NCBI GenBank assembly: GCA_027923505.1
Contig: BROI01000006.1
Span: forward strand, 248,001 to 312,000
Direction of reading: 5' to 3'
Length of the DNA stretch: 64,000 nucleotides
Source of the DNA: Mayamaea pseudoterrestris
Taxonomy: Eukaryota
In this document: one piece after another, positions 21,875 to 55,546 of the stretch
Layout of the letters: each line of letters begins with the position of its first letter
Numbering within the stretch: position 1 is the first letter of the stretch
The notes under the pieces: generated by a model
Databases searched by the model: none
Seen by the model: the letters and a program-made list of their open reading frames with translations, nothing else
What the model was told of the DNA's origin: nothing
Made by a program: the position numbers and the translations under genes

Positions 21875-22073
21875 GACGTAATTGACACTGGCACTCGTTT
21901 CGTACTCATGCCTTTTGAAGTGATTGACACTGGCACTCGTTTCATAGTATTGCCTTAAGACGTAATTGACACTGGCACTCGTTTCATACTATTGCCTTAC
22001 AACGTAATTGACACTGGCACTTGTTTCATACTATTGCCTTATGACGTAGTTTTCACTGACACTCGTTTCATTA
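21875..22073. repeat. 42-bp tandem minisatellite, ~4.7 copies
   Basis: Unit GACGTAATTGACACTGGCACTCGTTTCATACTATTGCCTTAN begins at 21875, 21917, 21959, 22001 and 22043. Confidence 0.95.
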
Positions 22074-22192: not shown

Positions 22193-24015
22193 ATGACAGG
22201 CCTTTATGTGCTCTTTTGCATGCTGTACGGATTAACAAACTGTCAGGGTCAATATCTTTACAAAGACATTCCAAATGCTAACGACTACGTCAGAGAATAC
22301 GAAGGTGTCGAACCGACCGACTTTTTCGACTTTCAGTCGCCAGGAATTGTAGAGTTTTACTCGCCCCATTGCGTAAGTATAGTACAGGGATGAATATAAA
22401 GCATTGAGTGATTGAATCTAATGCAAATTATTTACTTTTGTTCTACTTTTAGGCACATTGTCGACAATTCACCACGACGTACGTTGAAATTGCAAAGGCG
22501 ACACGCCAAGTCAACTCCAACATTAACTTTTATGCCGTTTCTTGTGGATCGCACTTGGAATACTGTCGCAAAGTCGATATAAAAGGTTATCCGTCCTTCT
22601 TTAAAATTACTGGTGGCGGAGGCAATGATCTGCAATCGGTAAAATCGGGAACTCGAGGCGTGGATCATACCTTTGTCTTGTCGCTCTTTGACAAGAATGC
22701 TGCTGCCGTTGAAGATACACCGACAAACTTCCAGACAGCCATGACCGCACTAAAACTGCAAACCAACAGGACGTACATAAGACCTGCCTTGAACCGCATT
22801 GGACCTGGTCGCTTGAATCCGCAGACAAACAAGGTGGAGGAAGTTCCATCCACAGGAGCGACCGTTTCCATGAAGGCAAACATCAAAGGCACAAGTGAGG
22901 AAATGCAACGCAGAGCGACAATACTGGAGAGTATTCGAAGAGCCAAAGGCCAACGTAAAGCGGAACAAGTCAAATCTGTTATGGAAACGACAAGTGAGCT
23001 GCCATACCAAAAGCTTGTACCACTCACCGGATTGCGAGAAAAGATTCCATTGTTTCGTCGCACTGTGAAACTGTCTCTCGAAGAGGAACTTATAATCGAC
23101 ACGGCAGTGTCGTTTGCATACAGTTTGAAATATGAAGTCTTTTTGAGAGGCCAGGAACTATCCGAGTCGGAAACGAAGGCGTTAAAAAACTGGCTAATCT
23201 TACTGTCAGTTTCGCTGCCCCAGGAGTGGATCTTGACCACTTTGGTGGACGATGTTTTGCGGAACGTGGATGGCCTTGTCAAGAATCCTGCGTTACTAGA
23301 CCACATTATGAAGGACCGGCAAATTGTTCGAACGGCTTGGTCGCCGTCGTGTCGCCGCGTTGTTGGGGGCGGTGGCTACACTTGTGGCTTTTGGAAGTTG
23401 CTGCACACTGTCACTGTGGGTGTCGCTGAGCATCGCGGCGGAAAGACGGTGTTTGCGCAGTCTTCCAACACTTTTTCGCCTGCGGAAACTGCCGATATAA
23501 TTCGTGACTTTATTGCAAACTTTTTTAGGTGTCGTACATGCGCCGCCCACTTTATTGCCAGCTACGACGATTGCTCCTTTGACCGATGCGATCGACTCGT
23601 GGAAGACGCCGAGGCTACATCGGACTCGGACTGGAAGGAGGTTGCCGTGTGGCTTTGGAAGTTTCATAATGCGGTGAACATTCGTGTATGGAACGAGCGC
23701 AACGAAAATGGTGTACGCAAGTCCGGAGACGAACTAAAGCTGGTGTGGCCGTCGCTGGCCGATTGCTGGACTTGCTATCGAGGTGATGGGAGCTGGGATC
23801 AAGATGCCGTCTTTTTGCATCTCGAACGCAGCTACTGGCCTGATGCTGAGATCGATTCTCGGACAGCGCGACTATTGACCTTTTCGTCGCAAATACAGCC
23901 GCCAAACGCTATTCGAATATATGCTCTCATCTGCATACTGATTGTGTTGGTTGGCTATCGGTCGGCGTCGCCGTATATCAAGGGGCAGATATATGGCCCG
24001 AAACGCTCCGATTAG
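22193..24015 (+). CDS. QSOX: Quiescin sulfhydryl oxidase (QSOX, thioredoxin + Erv/ALR), copy 1; exons 22193-22372 and 22453-24015
   Basis: Signal peptide; spliced VEFYSPHC-AHC; YTCGFWKLLH, FFRCRTCAAHF, WLWKFHNAVN, WP...CWTC; C-terminal TM helix. Confidence 0.88.
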
Positions 24016-24167
24016 GTTAAGCGAATCTTCATATAGATTATAAAAGTTCTTTATAATTTGTAACCTTGTCTTGTCACCAACATTCACCTGGTGTCGCGTT
24101 CAAGAAGCGACCAAACGTTTCGAGAAATTGTAGTAAGTACAGCTATCCTTCTCTCGGACCTTGTAAG

Positions 24168-25835
24168 TTATACTGCAGAGTCGTAATGATTATTGTAGCC
24201 ATTATGTGAGAACGATTCGTCAGTTTTCTTGTGTCGTCCACTCAGCCATCGCTTTTGCCGCCTTGCATACCAGCCAGCGCCGCCGCCAACCGCAAAGAAC
24301 AAAGATGCCAAAATAAAAGGCGACGATTTCCTTCCACCAATACTTGAGACAATATCTTCCTTCTCAATTGGAACCTCGTTTAATCCAAGTTCGTTGCGGT
24401 ACCTCTCCGAAAGTTCATCTTCCGGCCAGTACTCCAGTCGCAAGAACTTGTACATTGTTTCATCGTCCCATCCTCCATGCTCATCCCAACACTTTGGACA
24501 GCTTTGGCGACTTGGCCATCGCTTTTCTATTTCGTCTTTTGGTTGTGGTTTCCAATTTTCTCGTTGGGCCTGTTCCTGCAGCAAACGTACATTTACGGCA
24601 TTATGCGTCTCCCAAAGCCACACCGGGAGCTGCATCCATTCCGTATCGCTATACGTGGCATGAGACAGGCGGGTGCATCGGTTCAAGGAGCATTGATCAA
24701 ACGCGGTGATAAAGTTGACGCGACATACTTCGCAACCGAAAAAGCTTTCAACAAAGTTGCGAATCTTGAGAGCTGCATCCTCCGTGTGTATCACCAGTTC
24801 GCCATCGTCGGTTGAAATCATCATGTTGTATTCAACGACACCAACCGTCACCAAGTGAAAGAGCTCCCAAAGTCCACATGTATATCCGGCTACAGGGTCG
24901 CCATGAGTGCAGGCTGGACTCCACTTTTTCCGTGGCGGTGGATGCAATTGAAGAACGCTTTCCAGATTGCTCTCAGATTGAACAATGTTTTCAAAGTTAT
25001 CCAACAACGCCTTGATGAGCTTTTGTATTTGCCAAGATGGTGGCATGGTAATGTGCAGCAAGTCAAGCCACTCTTTGAGATGAGTTTGCGTCGTATTTGT
25101 CAAAGGACCAGCGCTGTCCATAAAGACTCCATTTCGCAAGGCAAAGTCAAGCGAAAGCCATGCATCCTCAAACACGTTTTGTTTGGTACGAACATGGATC
25201 GTGTCTGCAAGACTGTCAGGCCGACTCTTGTCTCGTCGTTTCCTATTGACTGACACTGGCGCATCCAAGTTCAATTCCGCCGTATGCAAGCCTAAATCGC
25301 TCAAGACTTGAAAGGGGTGTAGCTTAAAGTACTTTGCCGAACCAGTCGCATTCGTGGCACCAGCGTTAAATAGACGGATCACTGGATATGAATGAATTCC
25401 AAACGTTTTGCATAGAGGTCGATACACGGCGCAGGAGACGGCGTATATTTTCACGTCCACCTTTTCTGGCTGCTGAAGAGCAAGACTTTGAAGCGTTTCA
25501 CCAAAGTCAACGTAGTGGTCTCGAAAGTGCTGACAGTGCGGACACCATGGAGCGTAGAATTCCACGACTCTCGGTCCATTGTTCGGTCCAAAGATAAAGT
25601 TTGGTCGTTTGGGATCGTCACCTTTCTTTGGTCGATACTCTATCACTGGGCTGGCTTCCTCTCCCAGTGGAAGGTAGAGGTAGTTCTTCGCAACGTCGTC
25701 GTTGTCCTCCTCCTCTTCCTCTTCGGCAGCTTCAGCACTTTTGTCGTCATTGGTAACTATCTCTTCCTCGTCAGATACACATGATTGAAGGAAACATAGA
25801 ATCAAGAGCAAGAGTAGGTACTTCTTCATGGTCAT
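24168..25835 (-). CDS. QSOX: Quiescin sulfhydryl oxidase (QSOX), copy 2
   Basis: Signal peptide; VEFYAPWCPHC; YTCGLWELFH, FFGCEVC, WLWETHNAVN, WP...CPKC; C-terminal TM helix. Confidence 0.92.
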   Translation of the reverse strand: MTMKKYLLLLLILCFLQSCVSDEEEIVTNDDKSAEAAEEEEEEDNDDVAKNYLYLPLGEEASPVIEYRPKKGDDPKRPNFIFGPNNGPRVVEFYAPWCPHCQHFRDHYVDFGETLQSLALQQPEKVDVKIYAVSCAVYRPLCKTFGIHSYPVIRLFNAGATNATGSAKYFKLHPFQVLSDLGLHTAELNLDAPVSVNRKRRDKSRPDSLADTIHVRTKQNVFEDAWLSLDFALRNGVFMDSAGPLTNTTQTHLKEWLDLLHITMPPSWQIQKLIKALLDNFENIVQSESNLESVLQLHPPPRKKWSPACTHGDPVAGYTCGLWELFHLVTVGVVEYNMMISTDDGELVIHTEDAALKIRNFVESFFGCEVCRVNFITAFDQCSLNRCTRLSHATYSDTEWMQLPVWLWETHNAVNVRLLQEQAQRENWKPQPKDEIEKRWPSRQSCPKCWDEHGGWDDETMYKFLRLEYWPEDELSERYRNELGLNEVPIEKEDIVSSIGGRKSSPFILASLFFAVGGGAGWYARRQKRWLSGRHKKTDESFSHNGYNNHYDSAV

Positions 25836-29802: not shown

Positions 29803-30098
29803 CTTGATAGTGTGTTGATGTATAGGGAACTAAGTAGTGTATATATGTCTATATCGACTCTCACCAAGCAACGGAGGCTCTTGGTTCCTCGAATGAGAAG
29901 AAAGCGACGGCTCCGAAAGCATTCGCGGCATCCATTAGGGATGAAGTTTTAGTAAGACCGAAAAGATGACCATCAATGCTTCAGCGGTCCGTGCGCCGTC
30001 CGTTTAAGGCGGATGAACGCCACCGATTCGTTTGCACATCGAATTGTTCTTTCCAAGGTTACAAGTGCGCTGCATCCAGCCCCTTGCACCTTGTTACA

Positions 30099-32777
30099 AT
30101 GCCGAGCCATCATCATCGAGCAGGTTCTCTCAAGCAGACGAACAAGAAGAATAAGCGCTACAAGTCGTCCAAGCGCAGTGCTACTCGAGACGCTGGTGGC
30201 AAAGTCGCCGGAACCAAGCCGTCCGTCGCGCACAGCAATGCGGCGCAAAACAAGGCGGATCGGCGCAACTTTCAGCAGCAAAAGAGAGACGCAAAGCGAC
30301 AAGAAATACTGAAAAAGAAGCGAGGTTTGGATGGAGCGACGCTGCCGCCGCGAGTGGTTGGCATTGTTAGTTTGAGCAACACGTTGGGGTTGGAGGATCG
30401 ATTGAAGCAGGAATTTCTGAAACAGGCCGACCAAGTCGTTCACACGCATGACGACGCTCCAGATGCCACTGTAACTTGCAAGTACAATGTTCACAAGAAG
30501 GATGGAAACTTGACTTTCTTGACGCCTACATCGTTTAATCATTACGGGGACGACGATGATGCGGCAGTCATGGCGTCGCTCGATCTGGCACGCGTCTGTG
30601 ACGTGCTCCTGTTTGTCGTCGATGGAAATGCCAAGATGACCGACGATACGCCGTTGGAGATTCGTATTGGCGATGGTCACTCGGTTGGGACATCAAAAAC
30701 GTCATCCACGCAAGACTACGACCACTTGATTTCGACGCGAGGTGATCGAGTGTTGACCGCCATCAAAGGTCAGGGACTGCCCACCATTTTGACCGTCTTG
30801 GCGCACACTGTCAAGGATGCTTTGGGCGAAGACGAATTTACCATGCAGAGCTTTAAAAGCTTGAGGCGAGCTGGTATCAAGAGGCATCTGGAGGTCAAAA
30901 AATATGTCAGCCGCTTTGCACTTACCGAGTTTGGTACCGGACAGGAAAAGGTTGTCGAGGTGGACCTGAGCGAGACGGCTGAGGATATGGCAATGGGTGT
31001 TGACGACGCTGATGATGTACAAGATGAAGCAAATATATCCTGCGCTGCATTGATCCGGACAGTGTGTCAGACGTCGGCGGGTGGCCCAAAGTTTGTGTCT
31101 GAAGTGCCACGGCCATACATAATTTCCGATACCTTTCGTTACGACGAAGGAGCAAAAGAGCTGTCTCTTTCAGGCTTTGTACGTGGCATGGTGCCACTAG
31201 ACACTAGCGCGCTCTTCCACATCACAAACCTCGGTACATTTGCCTGCAAGTCCGTGTCAAGGAAAACCATGCCTTTGTCAAGGACGAACAAAAAGGCGAT
31301 GGACATCGTTGACGCCGCTACTCCGAACGACATTATTGCTGATTCGAATCGCCGCGAGTCATTGGAAATGTTTGCGACACCTGACGCGCTGGAAGGAGAG
31401 CAAAATCTCGTAGGTTTCGACGAAGACTTGGATGCTGCCAACGCTCCGGACGGCGACGATAAGTTTGCTCGACCTGCTGGATGGTCGACGTATCAGAGTG
31501 CTTGGCTCGATGCCGTGGATGAAGACAATTTTGACGACGCCATTGATGCTGGCGAAATGGCCGACGCTCTCAATCAGCACAAAACATCTAGCAACATGTC
31601 CCTCGGAGGCGATGTAATGGATCTGGACGATGCAAACGATGTTGACGTTGCTGAAAAACGGGCTCTTCAGGAACAGAGACGCAAAGACATGAAGGATCAT
31701 CTTGAATTTCCTGACGAAGTGGAGGTTGACGAGGACGTCAAGGCAAGCGAAAGATTTGCACGATACCGCTCGCTAACTTCCTTTCGGAAGAGCTTTTGGG
31801 ACCCTAAGGAAAATTTGCCTGATAGCTACGCGACGATCTTTCATTTCTCCAACTTCCGGGCTACACAACGCGCAGTATTAAATGAGATGAGGGATGCCAT
31901 CAAGGCTGCCGAGCAGGCAAATGGAAATTTTTGGGGCGCATCGCCAATTACGGAGTCATTGGATGCCATGTCGACGGAGAGTGGGGACGAGGACGACGAC
32001 TTGCTCACTGGTTGTGTCCCAAGCGGTTCTTACATAACTCTCACTCTGTCAAACATTCCGATCGATCGAATAAAAAACCTTTCTTCATCAAGTTTGCTTT
32101 CGGCTGTCGCATTGCTTCCCCACGAGAACAAGGTATCAGTTATGCACATGGGTTTGAGCCAGACGCTGAGTTGTGATTCGACTGATGCTGATCCCATCAA
32201 GAGCAAAGACGTCCTTGTGTTTCGTTGCGGCTGGCGCACATGGAAGGCGCGACCAGTCTTTAGTCAAAACAACTTGAACTGCGACAAGCACAAGTATGAA
32301 CGTTTTATGCCAACGCGTGGAGCTTTTTTCGCCGCGTCAGTCTTTGGGCCAGTGACATACACGCCATGTCCGGTCTTGGTTTTCCGTGAGGGTGAGAACG
32401 GAAGGCAGCTGGTAGCGATTGGTTCTATGATTGGTGCCGACGCGGATCGCATTGCCGTCAAGCGAATTGTGTTGACCGGCTTTCCCGTCCGGGTGCAAAA
32501 ACGCTGGGCAACCGTCAAGTACATGTTTTACAATCCTGACGATGTGAAGTGGTTTAAACCAGCTGGTCTGTATACAAAACATGGACTGCAGGGCAACATT
32601 GAAGAGAGCGTCGGCGAGCATGGGACCATGAAATGCCTGTTTAATGCTCCCATCAAGCAGCATGACACGGTGTGTTTGCCGCTGTACAAACGTATCTTTC
32701 CAAAGTTTGTGCCAGTCGAGGGTCAAAAGTCCGATGACACTACAATCAACGGCAAGCAGAGTTTAGTTGTTTTATAG
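30099..32777 (+). CDS. TSR1: Pre-rRNA-processing protein TSR1
   Basis: Likely start MPSHHHRAGSLKQTNK; FPDEV, ARYRSL.SFR.S.WDPKENLP, MFYNPDDVKWFKP, GEHGTMKC.F and CLPLYKRIFPK. Confidence 0.95.
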   Translation: MPSHHHRAGSLKQTNKKNKRYKSSKRSATRDAGGKVAGTKPSVAHSNAAQNKADRRNFQQQKRDAKRQEILKKKRGLDGATLPPRVVGIVSLSNTLGLEDRLKQEFLKQADQVVHTHDDAPDATVTCKYNVHKKDGNLTFLTPTSFNHYGDDDDAAVMASLDLARVCDVLLFVVDGNAKMTDDTPLEIRIGDGHSVGTSKTSSTQDYDHLISTRGDRVLTAIKGQGLPTILTVLAHTVKDALGEDEFTMQSFKSLRRAGIKRHLEVKKYVSRFALTEFGTGQEKVVEVDLSETAEDMAMGVDDADDVQDEANISCAALIRTVCQTSAGGPKFVSEVPRPYIISDTFRYDEGAKELSLSGFVRGMVPLDTSALFHITNLGTFACKSVSRKTMPLSRTNKKAMDIVDAATPNDIIADSNRRESLEMFATPDALEGEQNLVGFDEDLDAANAPDGDDKFARPAGWSTYQSAWLDAVDEDNFDDAIDAGEMADALNQHKTSSNMSLGGDVMDLDDANDVDVAEKRALQEQRRKDMKDHLEFPDEVEVDEDVKASERFARYRSLTSFRKSFWDPKENLPDSYATIFHFSNFRATQRAVLNEMRDAIKAAEQANGNFWGASPITESLDAMSTESGDEDDDLLTGCVPSGSYITLTLSNIPIDRIKNLSSSSLLSAVALLPHENKVSVMHMGLSQTLSCDSTDADPIKSKDVLVFRCGWRTWKARPVFSQNNLNCDKHKYERFMPTRGAFFAASVFGPVTYTPCPVLVFREGENGRQLVAIGSMIGADADRIAVKRIVLTGFPVRVQKRWATVKYMFYNPDDVKWFKPAGLYTKHGLQGNIEESVGEHGTMKCLFNAPIKQHDTVCLPLYKRIFPKFVPVEGQKSDDTTINGKQSLVVL

Positions 32778-32823: not shown

Positions 32824-34362
32824 CTAAACAGTAGCGAGCCAATACGGCTCTTCGCCCGGTCCAAGGCTACCGTGATCAACAAATGCAAAATATTCGTCGG
32901 CCAAGCGGTCATTGTTCGTGAGCAGTAAGGATCCTAAACGAGCCACCACTAATCGGAGCGACTTGACAATTCGATCGCGCTCAGTCGAAGAATTTGCCTC
33001 TAATAAAAGCGACTGATCAAGCGTTTTGATGAAGAAAGCATGCTTGGCCTTGCAAAATGGAAACTGGGCCCGATCGACAGTCTCGCTTGTGGCCACCAAG
33101 ACACGAGAGATATCCATCAAGTTGATGGAATGGAACATGTAGCTGGAAGCATGTTTCTCTGTAGTCGAGGATTTAAGTGTCTGCACAGTTTTCCAAAAGA
33201 ATTTGGGTGCAATAATGGTGCTGCGCAGCTGCTGTCCGCGTTCTATCCAACAGTGGACACCATGCGGTCGCACTTGCTTGGCGGACGCTGTATTTTCATG
33301 TAATATGAGTGTCATTTGCTCATTCATCATCTCCTGAACCAAGCCTGCTATCTGATCATCGCGTCGAAGACTAACCCTCCGTCCAGAGCGGTGAGCATTT
33401 TCCTTGTCATCAGCCACACTGCCAAATCGTCGATCATGGCGCCGGCTTATAAAATCCTCGGGATCCGAGTCGTAAAACATCTCCTCCTTGTTGCTTTTGA
33501 CAAACAATGGGGAGTCGTGTATCAATCCACATTGAAATGCTCGCTGAAAAAAGGGAATCTGCTTTTGCGGAGTCGCGGCTCGAGGGGTTGACTTGGATCG
33601 CGTTCGTCGATCTTGTCCTGTAAACGATCGAGAACGAACCGAATCAATGGTGCCAGACAATGACTCAGCTGAAGTCGAAAATGGACTTAGATCCTTTCGA
33701 AGCGAAGCTAGTCGTTGGTGCTTTGCATTCAGGTCGAAGGCGCGATTTCGTAGTACGCGCTGAATGTTCTTCTTCGCTGCCTTGGCATCCTGGTGTCGCG
33801 TCGACCCGTTATTGGAGCTGTCGTCGCAATAGAGACCCCACACCTGCCAGTAGCTTAGCCATGGATTGTCGCAGCTATTAATTGAAAGAATATCCGAAAT
33901 CTTTTGCTGCATGTGCTCGACAGTCTCATCGTCAATGTCAGCATCCGAGCAAGGCGATGCTTTCGTGCAAGTAGACATGGGACTGTAGCTCGGACAGTCG
34001 CCAAGACCGCAAAAGGAAACCTTTCTTGGCGTAACGAGTGAAATATCATCAAGTGAAGGCGAGCTCTTGAGGGGCGAAGGTGTCATTTCCACGTCGAGAA
34101 GGCTCAGTCGACGAGGTGTAATCATGTGATAAGCAGAAGTTTTACCTCCTCGGTCACAAAGAACGACTTCAGCTCCATCTTCACTAATAGAAATGCTTGA
34201 TCGAAGTATTGATTTTGGCGTGTGCTTGTTTTGAGAGGATAAGCTAGAGGCGGAGACTCCGGAAAAGCTTCCTGTCGAACTTGAACATGGTGTAACAATC
34301 GCAGCCATCCTGGTTGGCGTTACTGTTGCTTTGGTCGGCGTCCTTAATTTCATGCCTGTCAT
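32824..34362 (-). CDS. Hypothetical protein with a C-terminal PH-like domain
   Basis: Long ORF (the first in-frame ATG is 34506; 34362 is the more likely start); S/T/P-rich N-terminus; C-terminal FFIKT...LLEANSSTERDRIVKSL resembles the end of a PH domain. Confidence 0.6.
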   Translation of the reverse strand: MTGMKLRTPTKATVTPTRMAAIVTPCSSSTGSFSGVSASSLSSQNKHTPKSILRSSISISEDGAEVVLCDRGGKTSAYHMITPRRLSLLDVEMTPSPLKSSPSLDDISLVTPRKVSFCGLGDCPSYSPMSTCTKASPCSDADIDDETVEHMQQKISDILSINSCDNPWLSYWQVWGLYCDDSSNNGSTRHQDAKAAKKNIQRVLRNRAFDLNAKHQRLASLRKDLSPFSTSAESLSGTIDSVRSRSFTGQDRRTRSKSTPRAATPQKQIPFFQRAFQCGLIHDSPLFVKSNKEEMFYDSDPEDFISRRHDRRFGSVADDKENAHRSGRRVSLRRDDQIAGLVQEMMNEQMTLILHENTASAKQVRPHGVHCWIERGQQLRSTIIAPKFFWKTVQTLKSSTTEKHASSYMFHSINLMDISRVLVATSETVDRAQFPFCKAKHAFFIKTLDQSLLLEANSSTERDRIVKSLRLVVARLGSLLLTNNDRLADEYFAFVDHGSLGPGEEPYWLATV

Positions 34363-34821
34363 TGAGTATTCGGATGAGCTCTTCTTACTATAAAAGCAAT
34401 GGAAGCAGCCGTCAAACCTGAGCGTGGCGCGTTGGTTCGTTAAAGAGTGCGGTTCAAACGCAGGCTTGAATCTGATCGGCTGCGACGGCGCAACGCAGGA
34501 ACTCATTCCGAACAGCGAACACGACAGCCAATGCGCTCAGAGACGAGATAGAATTTTCCTTCACGCTGAGTGAGCAAGTCGTGCACGCTATTGATTAGAA
34601 GCACCTCCAAAGAGAGAGCTTTCTTGACAAAAGCCGACAGCAAAACTTGGAAGCTGCCCTCGATTTAATACGGAAACGGCTGTTGAGCGCGCAAGCCTCT
34701 CCATGGAAAAATAATTGCCTAAAATCCTAGCGGTACTTAACCGACATCTACGTGCTCCGTTCCAGCGAATTTCGGCACGGTCGAAGGTAAAAAAACAAAT
34801 TCTCCGGGATTAAAGATAGTT

Positions 34822-37800
34822 AACATTCTTATTTCAGGTGCGCTATAAGATAAGATGACTGCCCTGGTGTCTCTGTGGACTGCTTTGGTGATAACTTGTC
34901 ACCAGTCTCAGATGACATTCAAACACACCTACAGCAAGCCCTGTAGGTGCCCAAATTACACCAGCATGGGGCCAACATCATTATTCAGGCTGCGCTACAA
35001 GATGGTAGGCTTGCCTGGTGTCTCAGGGGATGGCAATGTATTTGGTGACAACTTGTCACCAGTCTCAGCCCGCAGATGCCATGACATTCAAACACACCTA
35101 CAGCAAGCCCTGTAGGTGCCCAAATTACAACTGAATGGTGCCAACATCATTATTCAGACTGCGCTACAAGATGATAAGCTTGGCTAATGTCTCAGGGGTT
35201 GGCAATGTATTTGGTGACAACTTGTCACCAGTCTCAGCCCGCAGACGCCATGACATACAAACACACCTATAGCAAGCCCAGTAGGCACCCAAATTACACC
35301 TGAATGGTGCCAAGATCATTATTCAGGCTGCGCTACAAAATGGTAGTTTTGCCTGGTGTCTCGGGGGATGGCAATGTATTTGGTGACAACTTGTCACCAG
35401 TCTCAGCCTGCAGATGCCATGACATTCAGACACTCCTACAGCAAACCCGGTAGGTGGCAAAATTACAACAGCATGGTGCCAACATCATTATTTAGGCTGC
35501 GCTACAAGATGGTAAGCTTGGCTGATGTCTCAGGGGTTGGCAATGTATTTGGTGACAACTTGTCACCAGTCTCAGCCAACAGATGCCATAACATACAAAC
35601 ACACCTACAGCAAGCCCTGTAGGTGCCCAAAATACACCAGAATGGTGCCAACATCATTATATAGGCTGCGCTACAAGATGGAAGGCTTGGCTGGTGTTTC
35701 AGGGGATGGCAATGTATTTGGTGACAACTTGTCACCAGTCTCAGCCTGAGATGCCATGACATTCAGACACACCTACAGCAAGTCCTGTAGGTGCCCAAAT
35801 TACAACAGAATGGTGCCAACATCATTATTCAGACTGCGCTACAAGATGGTAGGCTTGGCTGGTGTCTCAGGGGATGGCAATGTATTTGGTGACAACTTGT
35901 CACCAGTCTCAGCCCAAAGATGCCATGACATTCAAACACACCTACAGCAAGCCCTGTAGTTGCCCAAATTACAACAGAATGGTGCCAACATCAATATTCA
36001 GACTGCGCTACAAGATGGTAAGCTTGGCTGGTATCTCAGGGGATACCAATGTATTTGGTGACAACTTGTCACCAGTCTCAGCCCGCAGATGCCATGACAT
36101 ACAAACACACCTACAGCAAGCCCTGTAGGTGCCCAAAATACACCAGAATGATGCCAGCATCATTATTCAGGCTGCGCTACAAAATGGTAGGCTTGGCTGG
36201 TGTCTTGGGGGATGGCAATGTATTTGGTGACAACTTGTCACCAGTCTCAGGTCGCATATGCCATGACATTCAGACACACCTACAGCAGGCCCGGTAGGTG
36301 TCCAAATTACAACTGAATGGTGCCAACATCATTATTCTGACTGCGCTACAAGATGGTAAGCTTGGCTGGTGTCTCAGGGGATGGCAATGTATTTGGTGAC
36401 AACTTGTCACCAGTCTCAGCCTGCAAATGCCATGACGTACAAACACACCTACAGCAAGCCCAGTAGGTGCCCAAATTACACCAGAATGGTGCCAACATCA
36501 TTATTCAGGCTGCGCTACAAAATGGTAGGCTTGGCTGGTGTCTCGGGGGATGGTAATGTATTTGGTGACAACTTGTCACCAGTCTCAGCCTGCAGATGCC
36601 ATGACATTCAGACACACCTACAGCAGGCCCGGTAGGTGCCCAAATTACAACAGCATGGTGCCAACATCATTATTCAGGCTGCGCTAAAAGATGGAAGGCT
36701 TGGCTGGTGTCTCAGGGGATGGCAATGTATTTGGTGACAACTTGTCACCAGTCTCAGCCCGCAGATGCCATGACATTCAGACACACCTACAGCAGGCCCG
36801 GTAGGTGCCCAAATTACACCAGAATGGTGCCAACATCATTATTCAGGCTGCGCTACAAGATGGTAGGCTTGCCTGGTGTCTCAGGGGATGGCAATGTATT
36901 TGGTGACAACTTGTCAACAGATTCAGCCTGCAGATGCCATGACATACAGACACACCTATAGCAGGCCCTGTAGGTGCCCAGATTACACCAGAATGGTGTC
37001 AACATCATTATTTAAACTGCGCTACAAGATGGTAAGCTTGGCTGGTGTCTCAGGGGATAGCAATGTATTTGGTGACAACTTGTCACCAGTCTCAGCCCGC
37101 AGATGCCATGACGTACAGACACACCTACAGCAAGCCCTGTAGGTGCCCAAAATACACCAAAAAGATGCCAACATCATTATTCAGGCTGCGCTACAAAATG
37201 GTAGGCTTGGTTGGTGTCTCGGGGGATGGTAATGTATTTGGTGACAACTTGTCACCAGTCTCAGCCCGCAGATGCCATGACATTCAGACACACCTACAGC
37301 AGGCCCGGTAGGTGCCCAAATTACACCAGAATGGTGCCAACATCATTATTTAGGCTGCGCTACAAGATGGTAGGCTTGGCTGGTGTCTCAGGGGATGGCA
37401 ATGTATTTGGTGACAACTTGTCACCAGTTTCAGCCTGCAGATGCCATGACATTCAGACACACCTACAGCAGGTCCAGTAGTTGCCCAAATTACACCAGAA
37501 TAGTGCCAACATCACTATTCAGGCTGCGCTACAAGATGGTAGGCTTGGCTGGTGTCTCAGGGGATGGCAATGTATTTGGTGACAACTTGTCATGAGTTTC
37601 AGCCTGCAGATGCCATGACATTCAGACACACCTACAGCAGGTCCAGTAGGTGCCCAAATTACACCGGAATGGTGACAACATCACTTCTCAGGCTGCGCTA
37701 CAAGATGGTAGGCTTGCCTGGCTCCTCAGGGGATGGCAATGTATCTGGTGACAACTTGTCACCAGTCTCAGCCCGCAGATGCCATGACATTCAAACACAC

Positions 37801-40800
37801 CTACAGCAGGTCAGGTAGGTGCCCAAAATTCACCAGAAAGGTGCCATTATCATGATTTAGGCTGCGCTACAAGATGGTAGGCTTTGCTGGTGTCTCAGGG
37901 GATGGCAATGTATTTGGTGACAACTTGTCACCAGTCATATGAAATATTCAACAGATCGTCGACCCATACACAGAGGTAGTCGTAGCTGCAGATGCCATGA
38001 CATTCAAACACACCTACAGCAGGTCAGGTAGGTGCCCAAAATACACCAGAATGGTGCCAACATCATGATTTAGGCTGCACTACAAGATGGTAAGCTTGGC
38101 TGATGTCTCAGGGGTTGGCAAGGTATTTGCTGACAACTTGTCACCAGTCTCAGCCCGCAGATGCCATAACATACAAACACACCTACAGCAAGCCCAGTAG
38201 GTGCCCAAATTACACCAGAATAGTGCCAACATCATTTTTGAGGCTGCGCTACAAAATGGTAGGCTTGGCTGGTGTCTCAGGGGATGGCAATGTATTTGGT
38301 GACAACTTGTCACCAGTCTCAGCCCGCAGATGCCATGACATACAAACACACCTACAGCAAGCCCAGTAGGTGCCCAAATTACACCAGAATGGTGCCAACA
38401 TCATTATTCAGGCTGTGCTACAAGATGGTAGGCATGGCTGGTGTCTCCGGGGATGGCAATGTATTTGGTGACAACTTGTCACCAGTCTCAGCATGCAGAT
38501 GCCATGACATGCAGACACACCCACAGCAAGCCCGGTAGGTGCCCAAATTACACCAGAATGGTGCCAACATCACTATTCAGGCTGCGCTACAAAATGGTAG
38601 GCTTGGCTGGTGTCTCAGGGGATGGCAATGTATTTGGTGACAACTTGTCACCAGTCTCAGCCCACAGATGCCATGACATTAAAACACACCTACAGCAGGC
38701 CTGGTAGGTGCCAAAATTACAACAGCATGGTGCCAACATCATTATTCAGGCTGCGCTACAAGATGGTAGGCTTGGCAGGTGTCTCAGGGGATGGCAATGT
38801 ATTTGGTGACAACTTGTCACCAGTCTCAGCCTGCAGATGCCATGACATTCAGAAACACCTACAGCAAGCCCTGTAGGTGCCCAAAATACACCAGAATGGT
38901 GCCAACATCATTATTCAGGCTGCGCTACAAGATGGAAGGCTTGGCTGGTGTTTCAGGGGATGGCAATGTATTTGGTGACATCTTGTCACCAGTCTCAGCC
39001 TGAGATGCCATGACATTCAGACACACCTACAGCAAGTCCTGTAGGTGCCCAAATTACAACAGAATGGTGCCAACATCATTATTCAGACTGCGCTGCAAGA
39101 TGGTAGGCTTGGCTGGTGTCTCAGGGGATGGCAATGTATTTGGTGACAACTTGTCACCAGTCTCAGCCCGCAGATGCCATGACATTCAAACACACCTACA
39201 GCAAGCCCTGTAGTTGCCCAAATTACAACAGAATGGTGCCAACATCATTATTCAGACTGCGCTACAAGATGGTAGGCTTTGCTGGTATCTCAGGGGATGG
39301 CAATGTATTTGGTGACAACTTGTCACCAGTCTCAGCCCGCAGATGCCATGACATACAAACACACCTACAGCAAGCCCAGTAGGTGCCCAAATTACACCAG
39401 AATGGTTCCAAGATCGTTATTCAGGCTGCGCTACAAAATGGTAGGCTTGGCTGGTGTCTCGGGGGATGGCAATGTATTTGGTGACAACTTGTCACCAGTC
39501 TCAGCTAGCATATGCCATGACATTCAGACACACCTACAGCAGGCCCGGTCGGTGCCCAAAATACACCAGAATGGTGCCAACATCATTATTCAGGCTGCGC
39601 TACAAGATGGTAGGCTTGGCTGGTGTCTCAGGGGATGGCAATGTTTTTGGTGACAACTTGTCAGCAGTGTCAGCCCGCAGATGCCATGACATTTAGACAC
39701 ACCTACAGCAGGCCCTTTAGGTGCCCAAATTACACCAGAATAGTGCCAACATCATTATTCAGGCTGCGCTACAAGATGGTAGGCTTGGCTGGTGTCTCAG
39801 GGGATGGCAATGTATTTGGTGACAACTTGTCAACAGATTCAGCCTGCAGATGCCATGACATTCAGACAAACCTACAGCAGGTCGAGTAGGTGGCCAAATT
39901 ACAACAGCATGGTGCCAACATTATTTTTGAGGCTGCACTACAAGATGGTAAGCTTGGCTAGTGTCTCAGGGGATGGCAATGTATTTGGTGACAACTTGTC
40001 ACCACTCTCAGCCTGCAGATGCCATGACTTTCAAACACACCTACAGCAGGCCCTGTAGGTGCCCAAATTACACCAGAATAGTGCCAACATCCTTATTCAT
40101 GCTGCGCTACAAGATGGTAGGCTTAGCTGGTGTCTCAGGGGATGGCAATGTATTTGGTGACAACTTGACACCAGTCGTAGCCTGCAGATGCCATGACATT
40201 CAAACACACCTACAGCAGGCCCGGTAGGTGCCCAAAATACACCAGAATGGTGCCAACATCATTATTTAGGCTGCGCTACAAGATGGTAAGCTTGGCTGGT
40301 GTCTCAGGGGATGGCAATGTATTTGGTGACAACTTGTCACCAGTCTCAGCCCGCAGATGCCATGACATTCAAACACACCTACAGCAGGCCCGGTAGGTGC
40401 CAAAATTACAACAGCATGGTGCCAACATCATTATTCAGGCTGCGCTACAAGATGGTAGGCTTGGCTGGTGTCTCAGGGGATGGAAATGTATTTGGTGACA
40501 ACTTGTCACCACTCTCAGCCTGCAGATGCCATGACATTCAAATACACCTACAGCATGCCCTGTAGGTGCCCAAATTACACCAGAATAGTGCCAACATCCT
40601 TATTCATGCTGCGCTACAAGATGGAAGGCTTGGCTGGTGTCTCAGGGGATGGCAATGTATTTGGTGACAACTTGTCACCAGTCTCAGCCCGCAGATGCCA
40701 TGACATTCAGACACACCTACAGCAGGCCCGGTAGGTGCCCAAATTACACCAGAATGGTGCCAACATCATTATTCAGGCTGCGCTACAAGATGGTAGTCTT

Positions 40801-43800
40801 GGCTAATGTCTCAGGGGATGGCAATGTATTTGGTGACAACTTGTCACCAGTCTCAGCCCGCAGATGCCATGACATTCAGACACACATACAGCAAGCCCTG
40901 TGGGTGCCCAAATTACACCAGAATGGTGCCAACATCCTTATTCAGGCTGCGCTACAAGATGGTAGGCTTGGCTGGTGTCTCAGGGGATGGCAATGTATTT
41001 GGTGACAACTTGTCACCAGTCTCAGCCCGCAGATGCCATGACATTCAGACACACCTATAGCAGGCCCTGTAGGTGCCCAGATTACACCAGAATAGTGTCA
41101 ACATCATTATTCAGACTGCGCTACAAGATGGTAAGCTTGGCTGGTGTCTCAGGGGATAGCAATGTATTTGGTGACAACTTGTCACCAGTCTCAGCCCGCA
41201 GATGCCATGACATTCAGACACACCTACAGCAGGCCCTGTAGGTGCCCAAATTACACCAGAATCGTGCCAACATCCTTATTCATGCTGCGCTACAAGATGG
41301 AAGTCTTGGCTGGTGTCTCAGGGGATGGCAATGTATTTGGTGACAACTTGTCACCAGTCTCAGCCCGCTGATGCCATGACATTTAGACACACCTACAGCA
41401 GGCCCTTTAGGTGCCCAAATCACACCAGAATGGTGCCAAGATCATTATTCAGGCTGCGCTACAAGATGGTAAGCTTGGCTGGTGTCTCAGGGGATATCAA
41501 TGTATTTGGTGACAACTTGTCACCAGTCTCAGCCCGCAGATGCCATGACATTCAGACGCACCTATAGCAGGCCCTGTAGGTGCCCAAATTACACCAGAAT
41601 GGTGCCAACATCATTTTTTAGACTGCGCTACAAGATGGTAAGCTTGGCTGGTGTCTCAGGGGATAGCAATGTATTTGGTGACAACTTGTCACCAGTCTCA
41701 GCCCGCAGATGCCATGACATACAAACACACTTACAGCAAGCCCTGTAGGTGCCCAAAATACACCAGAATGGTGCTAACATCATTATTCAGGCTGCGCTAC
41801 AAGATGGTAGGCTTGGCTGGTGTCTCAGGGGATGGCAATGTATTTGGTGACAACTTGTCACCATTCTCAGCCCGCAGATGCCATGACATTCAGACACACC
41901 TACAGCAGGCCCTTTAGGTGCCCAAATTACACCAGAATGGTGCCAACATCATTATTCAGGCTGCGCTACAAGATGGTAGGCTTGGCTGGTATCTCAGGGG
42001 ATGGCAATGTATTTGGTGACAACTTGACACCAGTCGTAGCCTGCAGATGCCATGACATTCAGACACACCTACAGCAGGTCGAGTAGGTGCCCAAATTACA
42101 ACAGAATGGTGCCAAAATTATTTTTGTGGCTGCACTACAAGATGGTAAGCTTGGCTGGTGTCTCAGGGGATGGCAATGTATTTGGTGACAACTTGTCGCC
42201 AGTCTCAGCCCGCAGATGCCATGACATTCAGACACACCTATAGCAGGCCCTGTAGGTGCCCAGATTACACCAGAATAGTGTCAACATCATTATTCAGACT
42301 GCGCTACAAGATGGTAGGCTTGGCTGGTGTCTCAGGGGATGGCAATGTATTTGGTGACAACTTGTCACCATTCTCAGCCCGCAGATGCCATGACATTTAG
42401 ACACACCTACAGCAGGCCCTTTAGGTGCCCAAATTACACCAGAATAGTGCCAACATCATTATTCAGGCTGCGCTACAAGATGGTAGGCTTGGCTGGTATC
42501 TCAGGGGATGGCAATGTATTTGGTGACAACTTGACACCAGTCGTAGCCTGCAGATGCCATGACATTCAGACACACCTACAGCAGGTCGAGTAGGTGCCCA
42601 AATTACAACAGAATGGTGCCAAAATTATTTTTGTGGCTGCACTACAAGATGGTAAGCTTGGCTGGTGTCTCAGGGGATGGCAATGTATTTGGTGACAACT
42701 TGTCGCCAGTCTCAGCCCGCAGATGCCATGACATTCAGACACACCTATAGCAGGCCCTGTAGGTGCCCAGATTACACCAGAATAGTGTCAACATCATTAT
42801 TCAGACTGCGCTACAAGATGGTAAGCTTGGCTGGTGTCTCAGGGGATAGCAATGTATTTGGTGACAACTTGTCACCAGTCTCAGCCCGCAGATGCCATGA
42901 CGTACAGACACACCTACAGCAAGCCCTGTAGGTGCCCAAAATACACCAGAATGATGCTAGCATCATTATTCAGGCTGCGCTACAAAATGGTAGGCTTGGC
43001 TGGTGTCTCAGGGGATGGTAATGTATTTGGTGACAACTTGTCACCGGTTTCAGCCTGCAGATGCCATGACATTCAGACACACCTACAGCAGGTCCAGTAG
43101 GTGCCCAAATTACACCAGAATGGTGCCAACATCACTATTCAGGCTGCGCTACAAGATGGTAGGCTTGGCTGGTGTCTCAGGGGATGGCAATGTATTTGGT
43201 GACAACTTGTCACGAGTTTCAGCCTGCAGATGCCATGACATTCAGACACACCTACAGCAGGTCCAGTAGGTGCCCAAATTACACCAGAATGGTGCCAACA
43301 TCACTACATAGGCTGCGCTACAAGATGGTAGGCTTGCCTGGTTCCTCAGGGGATGGCAATGTATCTGGTGACAACTTGTCACCAGTCTCAGCCCGCAGAT
43401 GCCATGACATTCAAACACACCTACAGCAGGTCAGGTAGGTGCCCAAAATTCGCCAGAATGGTGCCAACATCATGATTTAGGCTGCGCTACAAGATGGTAG
43501 GCTTTGCTGGTGTCTCAGGGGATGGCAATGTATTTGGTGACAACTTGTCACCAGTCATAACCTGCAGATGCCATGACATTCAGACACGCCTACACCAGGC
43601 CCAGTAGGTGCCCAAATTACACCAGAATGGTGCCAACATCATTATTCAGGCTGCGCTACAAGATGGTAGGCTTGGCTGGTGTCTCAGGGGATGGCAATGT
43701 ATTTGGTGACAACTTGTCACCAGTCTCAGCCCGCAGATGCCATGACATTCAGACACACCCATAGCAGGCCCGGTAGGTGTTCAAAATACACCAGAATGGT

Positions 43801-44640
43801 GCCAACATCATTATTTAGGCTGCACTACAAGATGGTAAGCTTGGCTGGTGTCTCAGGGGATGGCAATGTATTTGGTGACAACTTGTCACTAGTCTCAGCC
43901 CACAGATGCCTTGACACTTAATTGCCCATATAACATGCCATGTATAAACCCAAATCACACCTGAATGGTGCCACTCTCATTATTTGGTATGCGCTGCAAA
44001 ATGGTATGCTTGACTGATGACCTAGTAGACTGCAATGTATTTGGTGATAACTTGTCACCAGTCTCAGCCCGCAGATGCAATGACATTCAAACACACCTAC
44101 AGCAAGCCCGGTAGGTGCCCAAATTACACCAGAATGGTGCCAACATCATTATTCAGGCTGCGTTACAAGATGGTATGCCTGGTTGGTGTCTCAGTAGACT
44201 GCAATGTGATTGGTGACAAGTTGTCACCAGTCTCAGCCCGCAGATGCCTTGACACTTAATTGCCCATATAACATGCCATGTATAAACCCAAATCACACCT
44301 GAATGGTGCCACTCTCATTATTTGGTATGCGCTGCAAAATGGTATGCTTGACTGATGACCTAGTAGACTGCAATGTGACTGGTGAGAACTACTCACCAGT
44401 CTCAGCCCGCAGATGCCATGCCTTTCAAATGCCCATACCTTGAGCCATGTGTATGCCCAAATGAAGCCAGCATGGTGCTAACATCCTTTCTTAGATGATG
44501 CGCTACCAGATATGTTGAGTGACTGGTGTCTTGGTAGACTGCAATGGGATTGTTGATAACTTGTCACCAGTCTCAGCCAGCAGCTGCCAGCCATTTAAAT
44601 GCCCATACATTGAGCCATGGCTATGCCCAAATCAAGCCAG
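34822..44640. repeat. 169-bp tandem satellite array, ~58 monomers (~9.8 kb)
   Basis: Strict 169-nt period of GGCAATGTATTTGGTGACAACTTGTCACCAGTCTCAG...; consensus ~51% GC by my count; degenerate monomers at both ends. Confidence 0.98.
37934..37985 (-). mobile_element. Short Ty1/copia-like reverse-transcriptase fragment inserted in the satellite
   Basis: Non-repeat insert (net +44 nt); the minus strand translates YDYLCVWVDDLLNISYD, matching the copia RT [Y/W]VDD motif context. Confidence 0.6.
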
Positions 44641-44744
44641 ACAGTTCTAGCCAATACAGTTCCTGTCACCTGGATGTCTCATTACTGCCAGACACAAATT
44701 TATTTAGATCTTGAAAAAGTTAACGTTGTGCCTAGCAAGTTGTA

Positions 44745-45717
44745 TTAGTTACTTTCACCGCCAAATATGCCTTGAATACCATCAAAAATGGATCCACCAT
44801 CCGGAGCTTTGGCATATGTTTCAAGATCTTCCTCCGTTGGTTGCTTAAGAAACTTCTTGTCCTTTATAAACCAGCATCTTTCATTCGCATTGCTTGAGGA
44901 TTGTCGAGCAATGTGAAAGTTTTGCCGTCAGTGTTCATGATCAGTACTTGTCGGGAGAATGGTCCCGAAATCGCGCTCTATGATATGCAAGGAAATTGAA
45001 TGGTGTTAGAATTTGTAGCTGACAACTTATACATGCTAAAACGAATGTTTGCATACGCGCGGCATGTGTCCTGACCTGTCCATTCTCAAAGGTTCTTCGT
45101 TGAATTTCAAGTTCATTCTTTTCGAAATTATCCTTGGTTTGTCTGCGCAGCTTTTCAATCAAGGCGCTTCCTTCAGCCGATAGTTCTGAATCGTCCGGCC
45201 CAGTCAATTCCTTCTTTATCAGCGTCACAGGGTCAGCAAAGTACTTTCTCGCCTTGTCATTGTCATTCTCGTCGGTTCGAACGACCGTCTCTAGACATGC
45301 GCCAAGTGGACCTCGCTTCTTGCAGATCTGCGTAAACGATAAACGCAATGAGGAACTAGTGAGCAAATCTGTAGCTACTCAACAGACTGCATGTTCATGC
45401 CTTTTTAACCCTTGAAAAGTGCGTCGTACCATGACATTTTCTCCAGTGTAGAGTGTCGGAGCCTCGACTTCGACGCCAATCTCTGACGCTACCCCTGGTT
45501 GCGAAACGATTGCGGAAGCGGCGACGAGTCCAGACACTATAACATTTCGGAAGAATTGATGTCTGCTAAGCGCGCTGTTGCCATGATCGCTAGATCTGGT
45601 TGATGCTGAATGAACGTGAAGTGATGGACTATTTCGAGGAACGTATGTTGTCGTAGAGAAGCAGTGCGCAACTGGTAGTAACGCCAAAATCCAAGTTTTA
45701 AATGTCCGGCTAGTCAT
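44745..45717 (-). CDS. Plastid-targeted hypothetical protein, 3 exons (45717-45430, 45327-45076, 44977-44745), with an apparent 1-nt frameshift near 44870
   Basis: Signal peptide ending VAHC|F followed by a transit-like region and a second hydrophobic stretch; CKKRGPLGAC motif; GT-AG introns. Confidence 0.65.
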
Positions 45718-45836
45718 TTTGATCTTGATACTGCAACAGGTGGGTGGAACGGAGCTGTCGGGATCGATGAATGTGGTGTATTGAAGCAAGGACTTCATCA
45801 TGGTCATCATGGTCGAATCGCGGTCGGAAGATGTTC

Positions 45837-53447: not shown

Positions 53448-55133
53448 TTACGGTTCTGCAGACGGTGGTCGATCCAACGGAGTCGGCGGTTCCCACTTCA
53501 AAAATGCGGGATTGCACATGCGAAACTGCTTGCTAAGGTACAGAACGCATGATAAAATCAGAAACGGAAAGTGCAACACACGAAGCAAACCGTTCGGATT
53601 GACATTGTACAACGTACTCTTGCTTGATATATTCTTGAACAGTGTCTTGCTTGACATGGACAACGTGAAGTCCCTTCCATACCTTGATCATGTCAAGATA
53701 CTGTAAAGTCGATATGATATCCTCTACTTTAATTCCCGTCTGATCTGAAATATCCGCAATTGTAATATTTTGCGTCATGTCATAGCTATCCAGCAGATGC
53801 ATCAACACATAGGTCCAGTAGCTGCGATAGGAAAGCTTGCCAAGATCTGATAGCGGCTTTTCAGGACTACCAGTCTTGCCCTCGCGCTTTGTTATTTCAT
53901 ATGAAAGGGAAATGATGAATTTGCCGTATCCAGACTGCTGATACTGAGGCAATGTGAGGATGCATGCCAAATTGTAGCTCTCCGTCGAGTACTGTGACGA
54001 TACAAAAGCAGTGTGTAAGCATCATGTTTTAAAGGAATTTGATCGAAGTTGTCATCATAACTCACCTTCTCCTTGGAAAAGTACCCGACAATGTGCGAGC
54101 CTTCATCGTCCACTCGCGTAACGATATAAAAGTAAAAGGGCGTAGTATCATAGTAAAGCGTCTTGTGGTCTAGAAACAGCTTGGCAATGAGGCATAGCTT
54201 TTGACAGTAAGCAGGATAAGCCTTGCCGTCCAATTCGTACACTGCAATGTCAGCTTCCCTGTAGATCTCCGTTCCAGGCGGTCGGCGACATTTGCACGTC
54301 TCCTTATGATGTAGATACGTCCGCGTCTTTCTCATGTACGAAAGGCAGTATTCGCAAACATAGAGCGTTCCAATGTTTGAATAATCCTCGGGAAAGGGTG
54401 AATAGTACCACGACTCGACTTCCCAGCCTCCCATGACAATCTTTTCAACATTCTTCACCTTGGTAGCTTCCTCGTGTTCCTTTTCTCCGGCTGGGTCGCC
54501 GTGAAAGTTCCCTCCGCCGACGTATACTGGCGTGTTATTGTCAGTGCCGCCGTTCATTGATTCGTCCGTCATGGTATGATGAATATCGAGCTCATCGCTA
54601 GCGTTACTCGTGCCATTGGCAAGCCTGGTTCGCACCAATCGATCATCCGCTGCTTCCAATGTTTCCGCTTGCAGAGTGTCTAGCTCGAATCGATCCAAGG
54701 TGATCCATTGATCGAGCCGACGATCGTGACCAACGTAGTGCACATAATACTCAATCTCGTCAGCCTTTAAACCATCGACGGCTCCAACTGGGAGGCGCTT
54801 GTTGGGATTGACGCGCTGCAAAGGACGCCGCTCGACTATGACAGCTTCCAAAGTCGATGGATCTTTCAATGGCGGTATACTTTCATCTGGAACAGCAGCA
54901 GCGGCAGCAACTGGAACAACAACAGCAGCGCCCTGCTCAGGTGTAACAGCCTCCAGCTCGGTCGTTTCAGTCGTCACTCTAGCTGGTAGAACAGTCGGCA
55001 CATCATCGTCTGCTTGGGGAACGATCGTCTCCGCAGCTCGAATCAATTTGACGTAGCAGTGGTCGTTCAAGTTAGGAATAACATTTATTAACGTGTCCGC
55101 TGCGCTTTCTTCCTTTGTAGTCATCATATCCAT
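53448..55133 (-). CDS. MYST-family histone acetyltransferase (Esa1/MOF-like); exons 55133-54066, 53991-53618, 53532-53448
   Basis: Tudor-knot YYVHYVGHDRRLDQW, C2HC finger WYYSPFP..CEYC, KLFLDHKTLYYD, NLACILTLPQYQ..GYGK and GSPEKPLSDLG. Confidence 0.95.
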
Positions 55134-55546
55134 GTGCTTCTTGCTTGAGAATGATGTTGTACCGGTAAAGTTGAAAAGTGGCCGCGATTATTCTATCGCG
55201 GCGCGGCGCGGCGCGGCAGTTTCTTGGCGCGCCAAACCCGAGTCGTAGCGGTTAGTCTTGTTTCGATCAGCTATGGTGCGTCTGCCCAGCTTGCGTATTG
55301 GAAGGGTCAGTGAGCCTTTTGTATATATTCATACGATTCACTACAAAGCTCTGCTCGTAGTCCTGTTTATTCTCTCAAGCTGGGTAATACATGTCACGTA
55401 GGTATATATACATCTCTAAATCTAAAAATAAAGTTTACCGCGTCGAGAACGAAACAGCCGTCGTCATTCAAGCGAGCAATAAAATATGTCGGGTCTATCA
55501 TCGAGTGCTGCGCGCGGTCAGCACGGAAAGTCCTTCATACACGACG

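What the first reader, a model, noticed from the sequence alone, without database searches (positions are those of the whole stretch)
34822..44640. Nucleosome-sized 169-bp satellite island between ordinary genes: centromere or heterochromatin candidate
About 58 head-to-tail monomers lie ~300-450 bp upstream of one gene and ~100 bp downstream of the next, with no transposon-rich buffer. The monomer length resembles centromeric satellites (alpha satellite 171 bp, Arabidopsis 178 bp). The characterised Phaeodactylum centromeres are instead short, AT-rich and non-satellite, whereas this monomer is ~51% GC. A satellite-type centromere or other chromatin domain here would be new for the group; function is inference only.
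Basis: partly seen in the sequence, partly recalled or inferred. Interest (0 to 1): 0.75.

Follow-up and report, generated by a model that had tools for sequence, protein, structure and literature searches.

The report
One of many diatom satellite islands
This 10-kb repeat block is one of well over a hundred similar blocks scattered among the genes of a diatom genome, so it is unlikely to be a single chromosome's centromere; it is either dispersed silent DNA or, less likely, part of a many-centromere chromosome design not yet seen in diatoms.

Summary
The array is real: 58 head-to-tail 169-bp units at 34821-44641, non-coding, CpG-poor, between ordinary genes of a pennate diatom. It is not one array per chromosome. 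The family makes up about 5% of genome G000 and maps to 138-152 loci on 37 of 41 contigs; this contig has five. Loci are clustered, not evenly spaced (P 0.0015-0.006), with gaps up to 1.46 Mb. Array ends show no transposon termini. Each unit carries a 19-bp palindrome, the most conserved part: 0 of 19 sites have a variant above 2%, against 83 of 150 elsewhere, although rare variants arise there normally. So copies with a broken palindrome do not spread. Best reading (0.6): dispersed, CG-methylated heterochromatin islands, like Tribolium euchromatic satellites, with a maintained binding or recombination site. Rival (0.25): clustered repeat-based polycentromeres, as in Meloidogyne or Rhynchospora. 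Sole centromere of its chromosome: 0.07. No diatom satellite of this kind appeared in my searches. The scan has noted this family many times on other DNA of the same genome. The genome-wide map, spacing test and palindrome constraint were computed here. CENH3 mapping decides.

The parts
34821..44641 (+). Array of about 58 head-to-tail 169-bp satellite units, non-coding, CpG-poor
   Evidence: 0 Rfam matches; its two 118-aa ORFs have no Pfam match
34890..43870 (+). Core of main-type (A) units, on average 9.2% different from each other, with small internal duplications (three-unit block, monomers 42-44 versus 45-47)
43874..44641 (+). Diverged edge units grading into subfamily B, which also occurs at edges of other arrays and as short arrays of its own
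37915..37933 (.). One copy of the 19-bp palindrome TGGTGACAA-C-TTGTCACCA present in each unit; the most conserved 19-base window of the unit
37936..37980 (-). 44-bp insert matching the active-site region of a copia reverse-transcriptase gene, just after the palindrome of monomer 19
   Evidence: 213-bp spacing; reads YLCVWVDDLL; 42 genome matches including itself
32824..34506 (-). Left neighbour, 560-aa ORF without Pfam match; start codon 315 bp from the array
44745..45810 (-). Right neighbour, probable multi-exon gene; putative stop 104 bp from the array
   Evidence: exon structure inferred
29976..32777 (+). TSR1 ribosome-biogenesis gene used to place the organism
   Evidence: Pfam; residues 583-909 are 100% identical to a record labelled Mayamaea pseudoterrestris

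Best explanation
The array is one island of a genome-wide, dispersed satellite family and does not itself carry the centromere. Shown: many islands, sharp borders next to genes, CpG decay, exchange of sequence between islands, no transposon termini, and a palindrome whose variants do not spread. Inferred: the islands are CG-methylated, nucleosome-packed heterochromatin. New islands are seeded at breaks by recombination or by reinserted repeat circles, often beside other satellites. They grow by unequal exchange, with younger A units expanding inside older B units. The palindrome is most likely the site of a dimeric DNA-binding protein, or a cruciform, that a unit needs in order to be copied or kept. 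Some larger island elsewhere may still be centromeric.
For: 138-152 loci on 37 of 41 contigs, five on C6. Spacing is clustered, with gaps of 1.46 Mb on C2 and 0.49-0.87 Mb on eleven other contigs; 0 of 40 six-kb samples along C2:20 kb-1.66 Mb held any satellite island. 26 five-prime and 26 three-prime ends fall at scattered phases. Nine unrelated CpG-poor satellites of 153-371 bp share such islands and share no box. CpG decay; three C5-methyltransferase matches in the genome; CG methylation by DNMT5a targets repeats in Phaeodactylum (PMC9998398, passages). Tribolium shows long satellite arrays in gene-rich regions with inter-chromosome exchange and eccDNA (10.1101/2023.04.24.538079, passages). 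The two diatoms with studied centromeres have short, low-GC, non-satellite ones.
Against: A purely selfish satellite does not by itself explain the palindrome constraint. Unit length, array size and position among genes match known repeat-based holocentromeres. Locus number rises with contig length (Spearman 0.51, P 0.02). No low-GC Phaeodactylum-type region turned up in the DNA I held (at most 3 low-GC windows per 3 kb against a threshold of 10), but that was only a small part of the genome. Methylation, chromatin state and the seeding mechanism were not measured.
Confidence: 0.6

Rival explanations
1. Clustered, repeat-based polycentromere or holocentromere: many islands, including this one, load CENH3 and act together as centromere units; the palindrome is a CENP-B-box-like or cruciform signal for CENH3 loading.
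For: Arrays of 1-17 kb of a 169-bp unit among genes, about one locus per 226 kb on C1-C20, resemble Tyba: 172 bp, about 20-kb arrays in euchromatin. Meloidogyne centromeres are unevenly clustered short arrays with a conserved 19-bp box. Dyad symmetries are common at centromeres (PMC5889037, abstract). Palindrome constraint, P 2.5e-6 and 4e-7. One CENH3-like H3 is present. One copia family is enriched near islands: 17 of 35 sites within 10 kb against 13% of the genome.
Against: Spacing is clustered, not regular, and 1.46 Mb of C2 has no mapped locus. The palindrome is not shared by the nine neighbouring families, unlike the Meloidogyne box. No Helitron-like fixed termini. Phaeodactylum is monocentric with low-GC centromeres, and this unit scores 0 on that measure. 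A second copia family is barely enriched (7 of 23 within 10 kb, P 0.03; not significant at 5 or 20 kb), and enrichment can come from gene-free safe space alone. No 10-bp AA/TT phasing signal.
Confidence: 0.25
2. One reading: this array is the single satellite centromere of its chromosome.
For: Nucleosome-sized unit, layered edges, conserved dyad. Contigs are not telomere-to-telomere (1 of 20 starts and 0 of 16 ends examined carry telomere repeats), so chromosome number is open.
Against: C6 holds five 169-bp loci separated by ordinary genes; this is among the smallest and the only one without a second satellite family; another reaches 28 kb. One per chromosome would need well over 100 chromosomes in 30.6 Mb.
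Confidence: 0.07
3. The units are internal repeats of a non-autonomous transposon (Helitron or MITE type) that carries them around; the palindrome is its hairpin.
For: A 19-bp hairpin and wide dispersal fit rolling-circle elements (general knowledge; Helitron-linked satellites).
Against: The unique parts of both flanks match nothing else in the genome. End phases are uniform (Rayleigh P 0.58 and 0.41). Indel breakpoints are not drawn to the palindrome (20 of 99 against 17.6 expected).
Confidence: 0.05
4. The interstitial layout is an assembly artefact: subtelomeric arrays fused by misjoins.
For: Several contigs start or end inside satellites, and two telomere units lie inside a C13 array.
Against: Too many loci for chromosome ends; loci are spread evenly between contig ends and middles; units differ by 9%, enough to phase a 10-kb array; genes with Pfam matches flank the arrays examined.
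Confidence: 0.03

Closest known systems
Tribolium castaneum euchromatic satellites Cast1-Cast9 (10.1101/2023.04.24.538079, passages)
   Same: Arrays of about 1-30 kb in gene-rich regions, exchange between chromosomes, degenerate edges, mixed arrays, little dependence on transposons.
   Different: Here one family alone is about 5% of a compact 30-Mb algal genome, shows strong CpG decay, and has a palindrome whose variants do not spread.
Rhynchospora Tyba holocentromeres (10.64898/2026.01.17.700053 and PMC10048060, passages)
   Same: 172-bp versus 169-bp unit; discrete arrays of 10-20 kb among genes; many per chromosome; number rises with chromosome length.
   Different: Tyba arrays are regularly spaced, bind CENH3, are conserved across a genus and are linked to Helitrons. 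Here spacing is clustered, CENH3 is untested, no relatives were found and no Helitron termini were seen.
Meloidogyne clustered centromeres (PMC13404089, abstract and Background)
   Same: Short arrays unevenly clustered along chromosomes; several repeat families mixed; a conserved 19-bp element.
   Different: Their box is shared by different repeat families and tied to CenH3; this palindrome belongs to one family only.
Phaeodactylum tricornutum and Fistulifera solaris centromeres (10.1101/096016 and 10.1101/2021.11.10.468027, passages)
   Same: Pennate diatoms; a few kb of non-coding DNA between genes.
   Different: Those are low-GC, non-satellite and about one per chromosome; this array has genome-average GC and no low-GC windows.
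Ectocarpus centromeres (PMC11541908, passages)
   Same: Stramenopile; GC near genome average; LTR elements gather there.
   Different: One retrotransposon-rich region per chromosome with little tandem repeat; its 98-bp satellite is subtelomeric.

Membership tests
Satellite DNA | Head-to-tail, non-coding units of constant length at high copy number | tested here: met
Dispersed euchromatic satellite (Cast type) | Many arrays on many chromosomes beside ordinary genes | tested here: met
Dispersed euchromatic satellite (Cast type) | Sequence exchange between arrays | tested here: met
   Between-array distance is close to within-array distance for most of 12 regions; one C6 array is distinct
Dispersed euchromatic satellite (Cast type) | Presence in extrachromosomal circles; absence of CENH3 | not testable with these tools
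   needs 2D gels or circle sequencing, and ChIP
Monocentric satellite centromere | One major array per chromosome | tested here: not met
   five loci on C6, up to 11 on C1; contigs are not whole chromosomes
Repeat-based holocentromere (Tyba type) | Many short arrays among genes, number scaling with length | tested here: met
Repeat-based holocentromere (Tyba type) | Regular spacing along whole chromosomes | tested here: not met
   clustered, P 0.0015-0.006; 1.46-Mb gap; map incomplete
Repeat-based holocentromere (Tyba type) | CENH3 on the arrays | not testable with these tools
   only the presence of a CENH3-like gene was seen
Repeat-based holocentromere (Tyba type) | Unit conserved across related species | tested here: inconclusive
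   60 of 60 metagenome hits were lone short matches; satellites assemble poorly in metagenomes
Meloidogyne clustered centromere | One conserved box shared by different repeat families | tested here: not met
Phaeodactylum-type centromere | Ten or more 100-bp windows of 32% GC or less within 3 kb | tested here: not met
   0 across the array, at most 1 in the window (threshold)
Transposon-internal tandem repeat | Shared termini at a fixed phase | tested here: not met

The most novel reading that the evidence does not exclude
This diatom has replaced the short AT-rich single centromere with clusters of small satellite islands that each load CENH3, marked by a conserved palindrome: the first repeat-based polycentric or holocentric chromosomes in a diatom, with this array as one unit.
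Probability: 0.25. Interest if true: 0.9.

Novelty: new member of a known kind. Interest (0 to 1): 0.5.

Why it matters
Diatom centromeres are known from two species and are short, AT-rich and repeat-free. A compact diatom genome with about 5% of its DNA in 150 or more satellite islands among genes is unexpected either way. If the islands are silent chromatin, they are a clean case of satellite spread in a gene-dense genome, with a single 19-bp element under constraint. If they load CENH3, diatoms have a second, polycentric way to build chromosomes, which bears on diatom mitosis and on episome design. The map and the palindrome make both readings testable with one ChIP experiment and one pull-down.

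Tried and rejected
RNA gene or coding repeat: 0 Rfam matches, fold z -1.22, longest stop-free stretch 138 aa, no Pfam match. Shared transposon ends: none. A box common to all island satellites: only two borderline 10-12-bp matches among the families. 10-bp AA/TT phasing: 77% of shuffles score as high. Compensatory changes as proof of a hairpin: 29 compensatory double changes of 3 types against 6 non-compensatory of 5 types in 947 palindromes; 25 are one type and probably one event, so weak. Hairpin micro-inversion of the centre base: G 43, T 37, A 13 of 93, with 11 G from one array; unclear. Breaks focused on the palindrome: no. Relatives in metagenomes: 60 lone matches, longest alignment 34 bases. 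Empty-site allele: four runs laid on the left flank only; X1 and X2 cover 30 and 29 of 30 bins, X4 0 and X5 5; no joint or loose end, so uninformative. No RNA holder listed. The telomere junction pattern found 0 matches although C11 starts with telomere repeats, so that search was uninformative. The PDB search did not separate CENH3 from H3. PMC2111428 was held without its text. The size of the locus at C2:257 kb was not determined.

Full report
Observation. The array is as described. Period 169; 58 anchors, 52 of 57 spacings exactly 169 bp; full extent 34821-44641. The consensus is 51.5% GC and the stretch 48.9%, like its flanks. It is non-coding. Genes lie 315 bp and about 104 bp away. Part of the neighbouring TSR1 protein is 100% identical to a record labelled Mayamaea pseudoterrestris, a pennate diatom.

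Abundance. A 22-mer of the unit has 6,879 exact matches in G000 (30.6 Mb, 41 contigs), its reversed control none. Scaling by 433 hits in 99.6 kb of measured arrays gives about 1.6 Mb, 5.2%, or 9,400 units. Collapse in the assembly would make this a lower bound.

Map. The tool lists only 100 places per pattern, so I sampled with nine rare-variant patterns and added places. Positions were copied from those lists; for some tight runs of hits I copied only part. Merging within 20 kb gives 152 loci, within 30 kb 138, on 37 of 41 contigs; Chao2 estimates 177 and 154. The map is incomplete: 40 of 59 loci found by other routes were also hit by the rare-variant searches. A locus is one or more hits and may be short; 12 regions read in full held arrays of 0.8-16.6 kb. 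C6 carries five loci: 170-176 kb (28 kb with two other families), this one, 683-691, 917-931 and 1036-1049 kb. The one-per-chromosome test therefore fails.

Spacing. On C1-C20 (20 of 41 contigs, 23.7 Mb, lengths) there are 105 loci, one per 226 kb. Counts fit contig length (chi-square P 0.38). Within contigs of three or more loci, spacing is more clustered than random (P 0.0015 and 0.006) and not regular. The largest gap is C2:257-1715 kb. Forty 6-kb samples along C2:20 kb-1.66 Mb showed no island of any family and 0 of 240 CpG-poor windows. later found one hit at C2:257 kb between two samples, so sampling can miss; its size is unknown. Only 1 of 20 contig starts and 0 of 16 ends examined carry telomere repeats, so contigs are not whole chromosomes.

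Anatomy. Two subfamilies exist: a main type A and a type B, roughly 20% different, at array edges and in short arrays; this array grades into B at its right end. I read B as older, which is inference. Most arrays differ from each other little more than internally, which points to exchange between loci. The unique flanks match nothing else, and 52 array ends fall at uniform phases, so no transposon termini. Islands often abut nine unrelated CpG-poor satellites of 153-371 bp that share no box with this one. CpG is depleted to 0.21 here and recovers within a few hundred bases. CpG sites mutate by transition 4.5 times more often than other C/G sites. The genome has three C5-methyltransferase matches, and in Phaeodactylum DNMT5a keeps CG methylation on repeats (PMC9998398, passages). 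Methylation here is inferred, not measured.

The palindrome. Each unit has a 9-1-9 palindrome. In 471 A-type units it is the most conserved of 169 windows, 0.9% against 5.3%. None of its 19 sites has a variant above 2%, against 83 of 150 elsewhere (P 2.5e-6), yet rare variants are no fewer there, 3.3 against 2.6 per site. With a different anchor and 497 units the result holds, and with one vote per array it is 1 of 19 against 98 of 150 (P 4e-7). So changes arise but do not spread. Some rare variants may be assembly errors, which would weaken the 'arise normally' half. Tests for a folded structure were weak or negative, so I favour a symmetric protein site over a cruciform; this is inference.

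Retroelements. The 44-bp insert in monomer 19 is a piece of a copia reverse-transcriptase gene (lead from note e1-7504562), most simply a patch copied in during break repair. That family lies near islands more than chance (17 of 35 sites within 10 kb against 13%; P 5e-7), while a second family with identical LTRs inside a C13 array hardly does (7 of 23). Targeting and tolerance in gene-free DNA both fit.

Centromere machinery. Among 20 histone-fold matches, one H3 variant has a loop 1 longer by one residue and W for F, 72% identical to a canonical H3; that these mark CENH3 is recalled knowledge. The array scores 0 on the low-GC measure that marks Phaeodactylum centromeres. No such region appeared in the DNA I held, which was a small part of the genome.

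Mechanism. Best reading (0.6): dispersed methylated satellite islands, seeded at breaks, grown by unequal exchange, homogenised between loci, with a palindrome that a unit needs in order to be copied or kept; this array is not a centromere. It works like Tribolium Cast satellites. The bold rival (0.25) is a clustered repeat-based polycentromere. The layout works like Tyba in unit size, array size and setting and like Meloidogyne in clustering, but fails regular spacing and the shared box, so I do not file it with either.

Novelty. The main text of a genome paper on the named species has no occurrence of 'satellite', 'centromer' or 'tandem', and says chromosome number is unknown (PMC9724779, passages); its repeat table lists Satellites 0 and Unclassified 7.36% (supplement rows). 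Searches for diatom with centromere, satellite and tandem repeat, Mayamaea with repeat, diatom with holocentric and diatom with CENH3 terms since 2020 listed no diatom satellite centromere or holocentromere; I saw listings only, and the library lacks most subscription papers. I saw passages of the two diatom centromere preprints but not their supplements, which may bear on tandem repeats at those centromeres. PMC11541908 and PMC10048060 were seen as passages, PMC5889037 as abstract. The scan noted this family on many other stretches of the same genome (72 notes fit one look-up); the words holocentric, Tyba and holocentromere were met in no finding.

Verdict. A real, apparently undescribed satellite family of a known kind, with an unusual genome-wide layout for a diatom and one constrained element. 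Interest 0.5; 0.9 if CENH3 proves to sit on many islands.

Noticed in passing
G000 C6:176-198 kb, 681-683 kb, 1038-1041 kb; C13:275-285 kb, 911-913 kb; C12:389-391 kb: At least nine further unrelated CpG-poor satellites (153, 162, 166, 174, 180, 183, 235, 356, 371 bp), mostly near one or two nucleosome lengths, abut or nest in 169-bp arrays.
   Followed up: partly
L101 (C11:1-1500); L094, L099, L107, L110: C11 starts with 27 telomere units followed by the 180-bp family; C4, C9, C17 and C20 start inside that family, which may be the subtelomeric satellite.
   Followed up: partly
L121:7795-7806 (C13:160.8 kb): Two telomere units lie just after a palindrome inside a 169-bp array.
   Followed up: no
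L121 (C13:152693-159935): A 7.2-kb copia element with identical 376-bp LTRs splits an array and shows no CpG decay, so it is a recent insertion.
   Followed up: partly
window 21874-22071: A 42-bp tandem repeat that recurs at C6:1029, 1055 and 1057 kb and C2:1033 kb and is not CpG-poor.
   Followed up: no
window 53892-61418: Two neighbouring MYST-family acetyltransferase genes, one with a CW zinc finger.
   Followed up: no
window 22741-25835: Two convergent Erv1/Alr-family genes side by side.
   Followed up: no
L085 and L086 (C2:2768 kb, C8:1016 kb): Near-identical copies of one histone-fold gene on two contigs, perhaps an unmerged second haplotype.
   Followed up: no
G000 C23:225-234 kb and C28:291-297 kb: Rare variants repeat at fixed offsets of about 4.6 and 5.6 kb, pointing to block duplications within arrays or assembly duplication.
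   Followed up: no
G000:C2:257388: A lone satellite hit in an otherwise empty 1.7-Mb stretch; size unknown.
   Followed up: no
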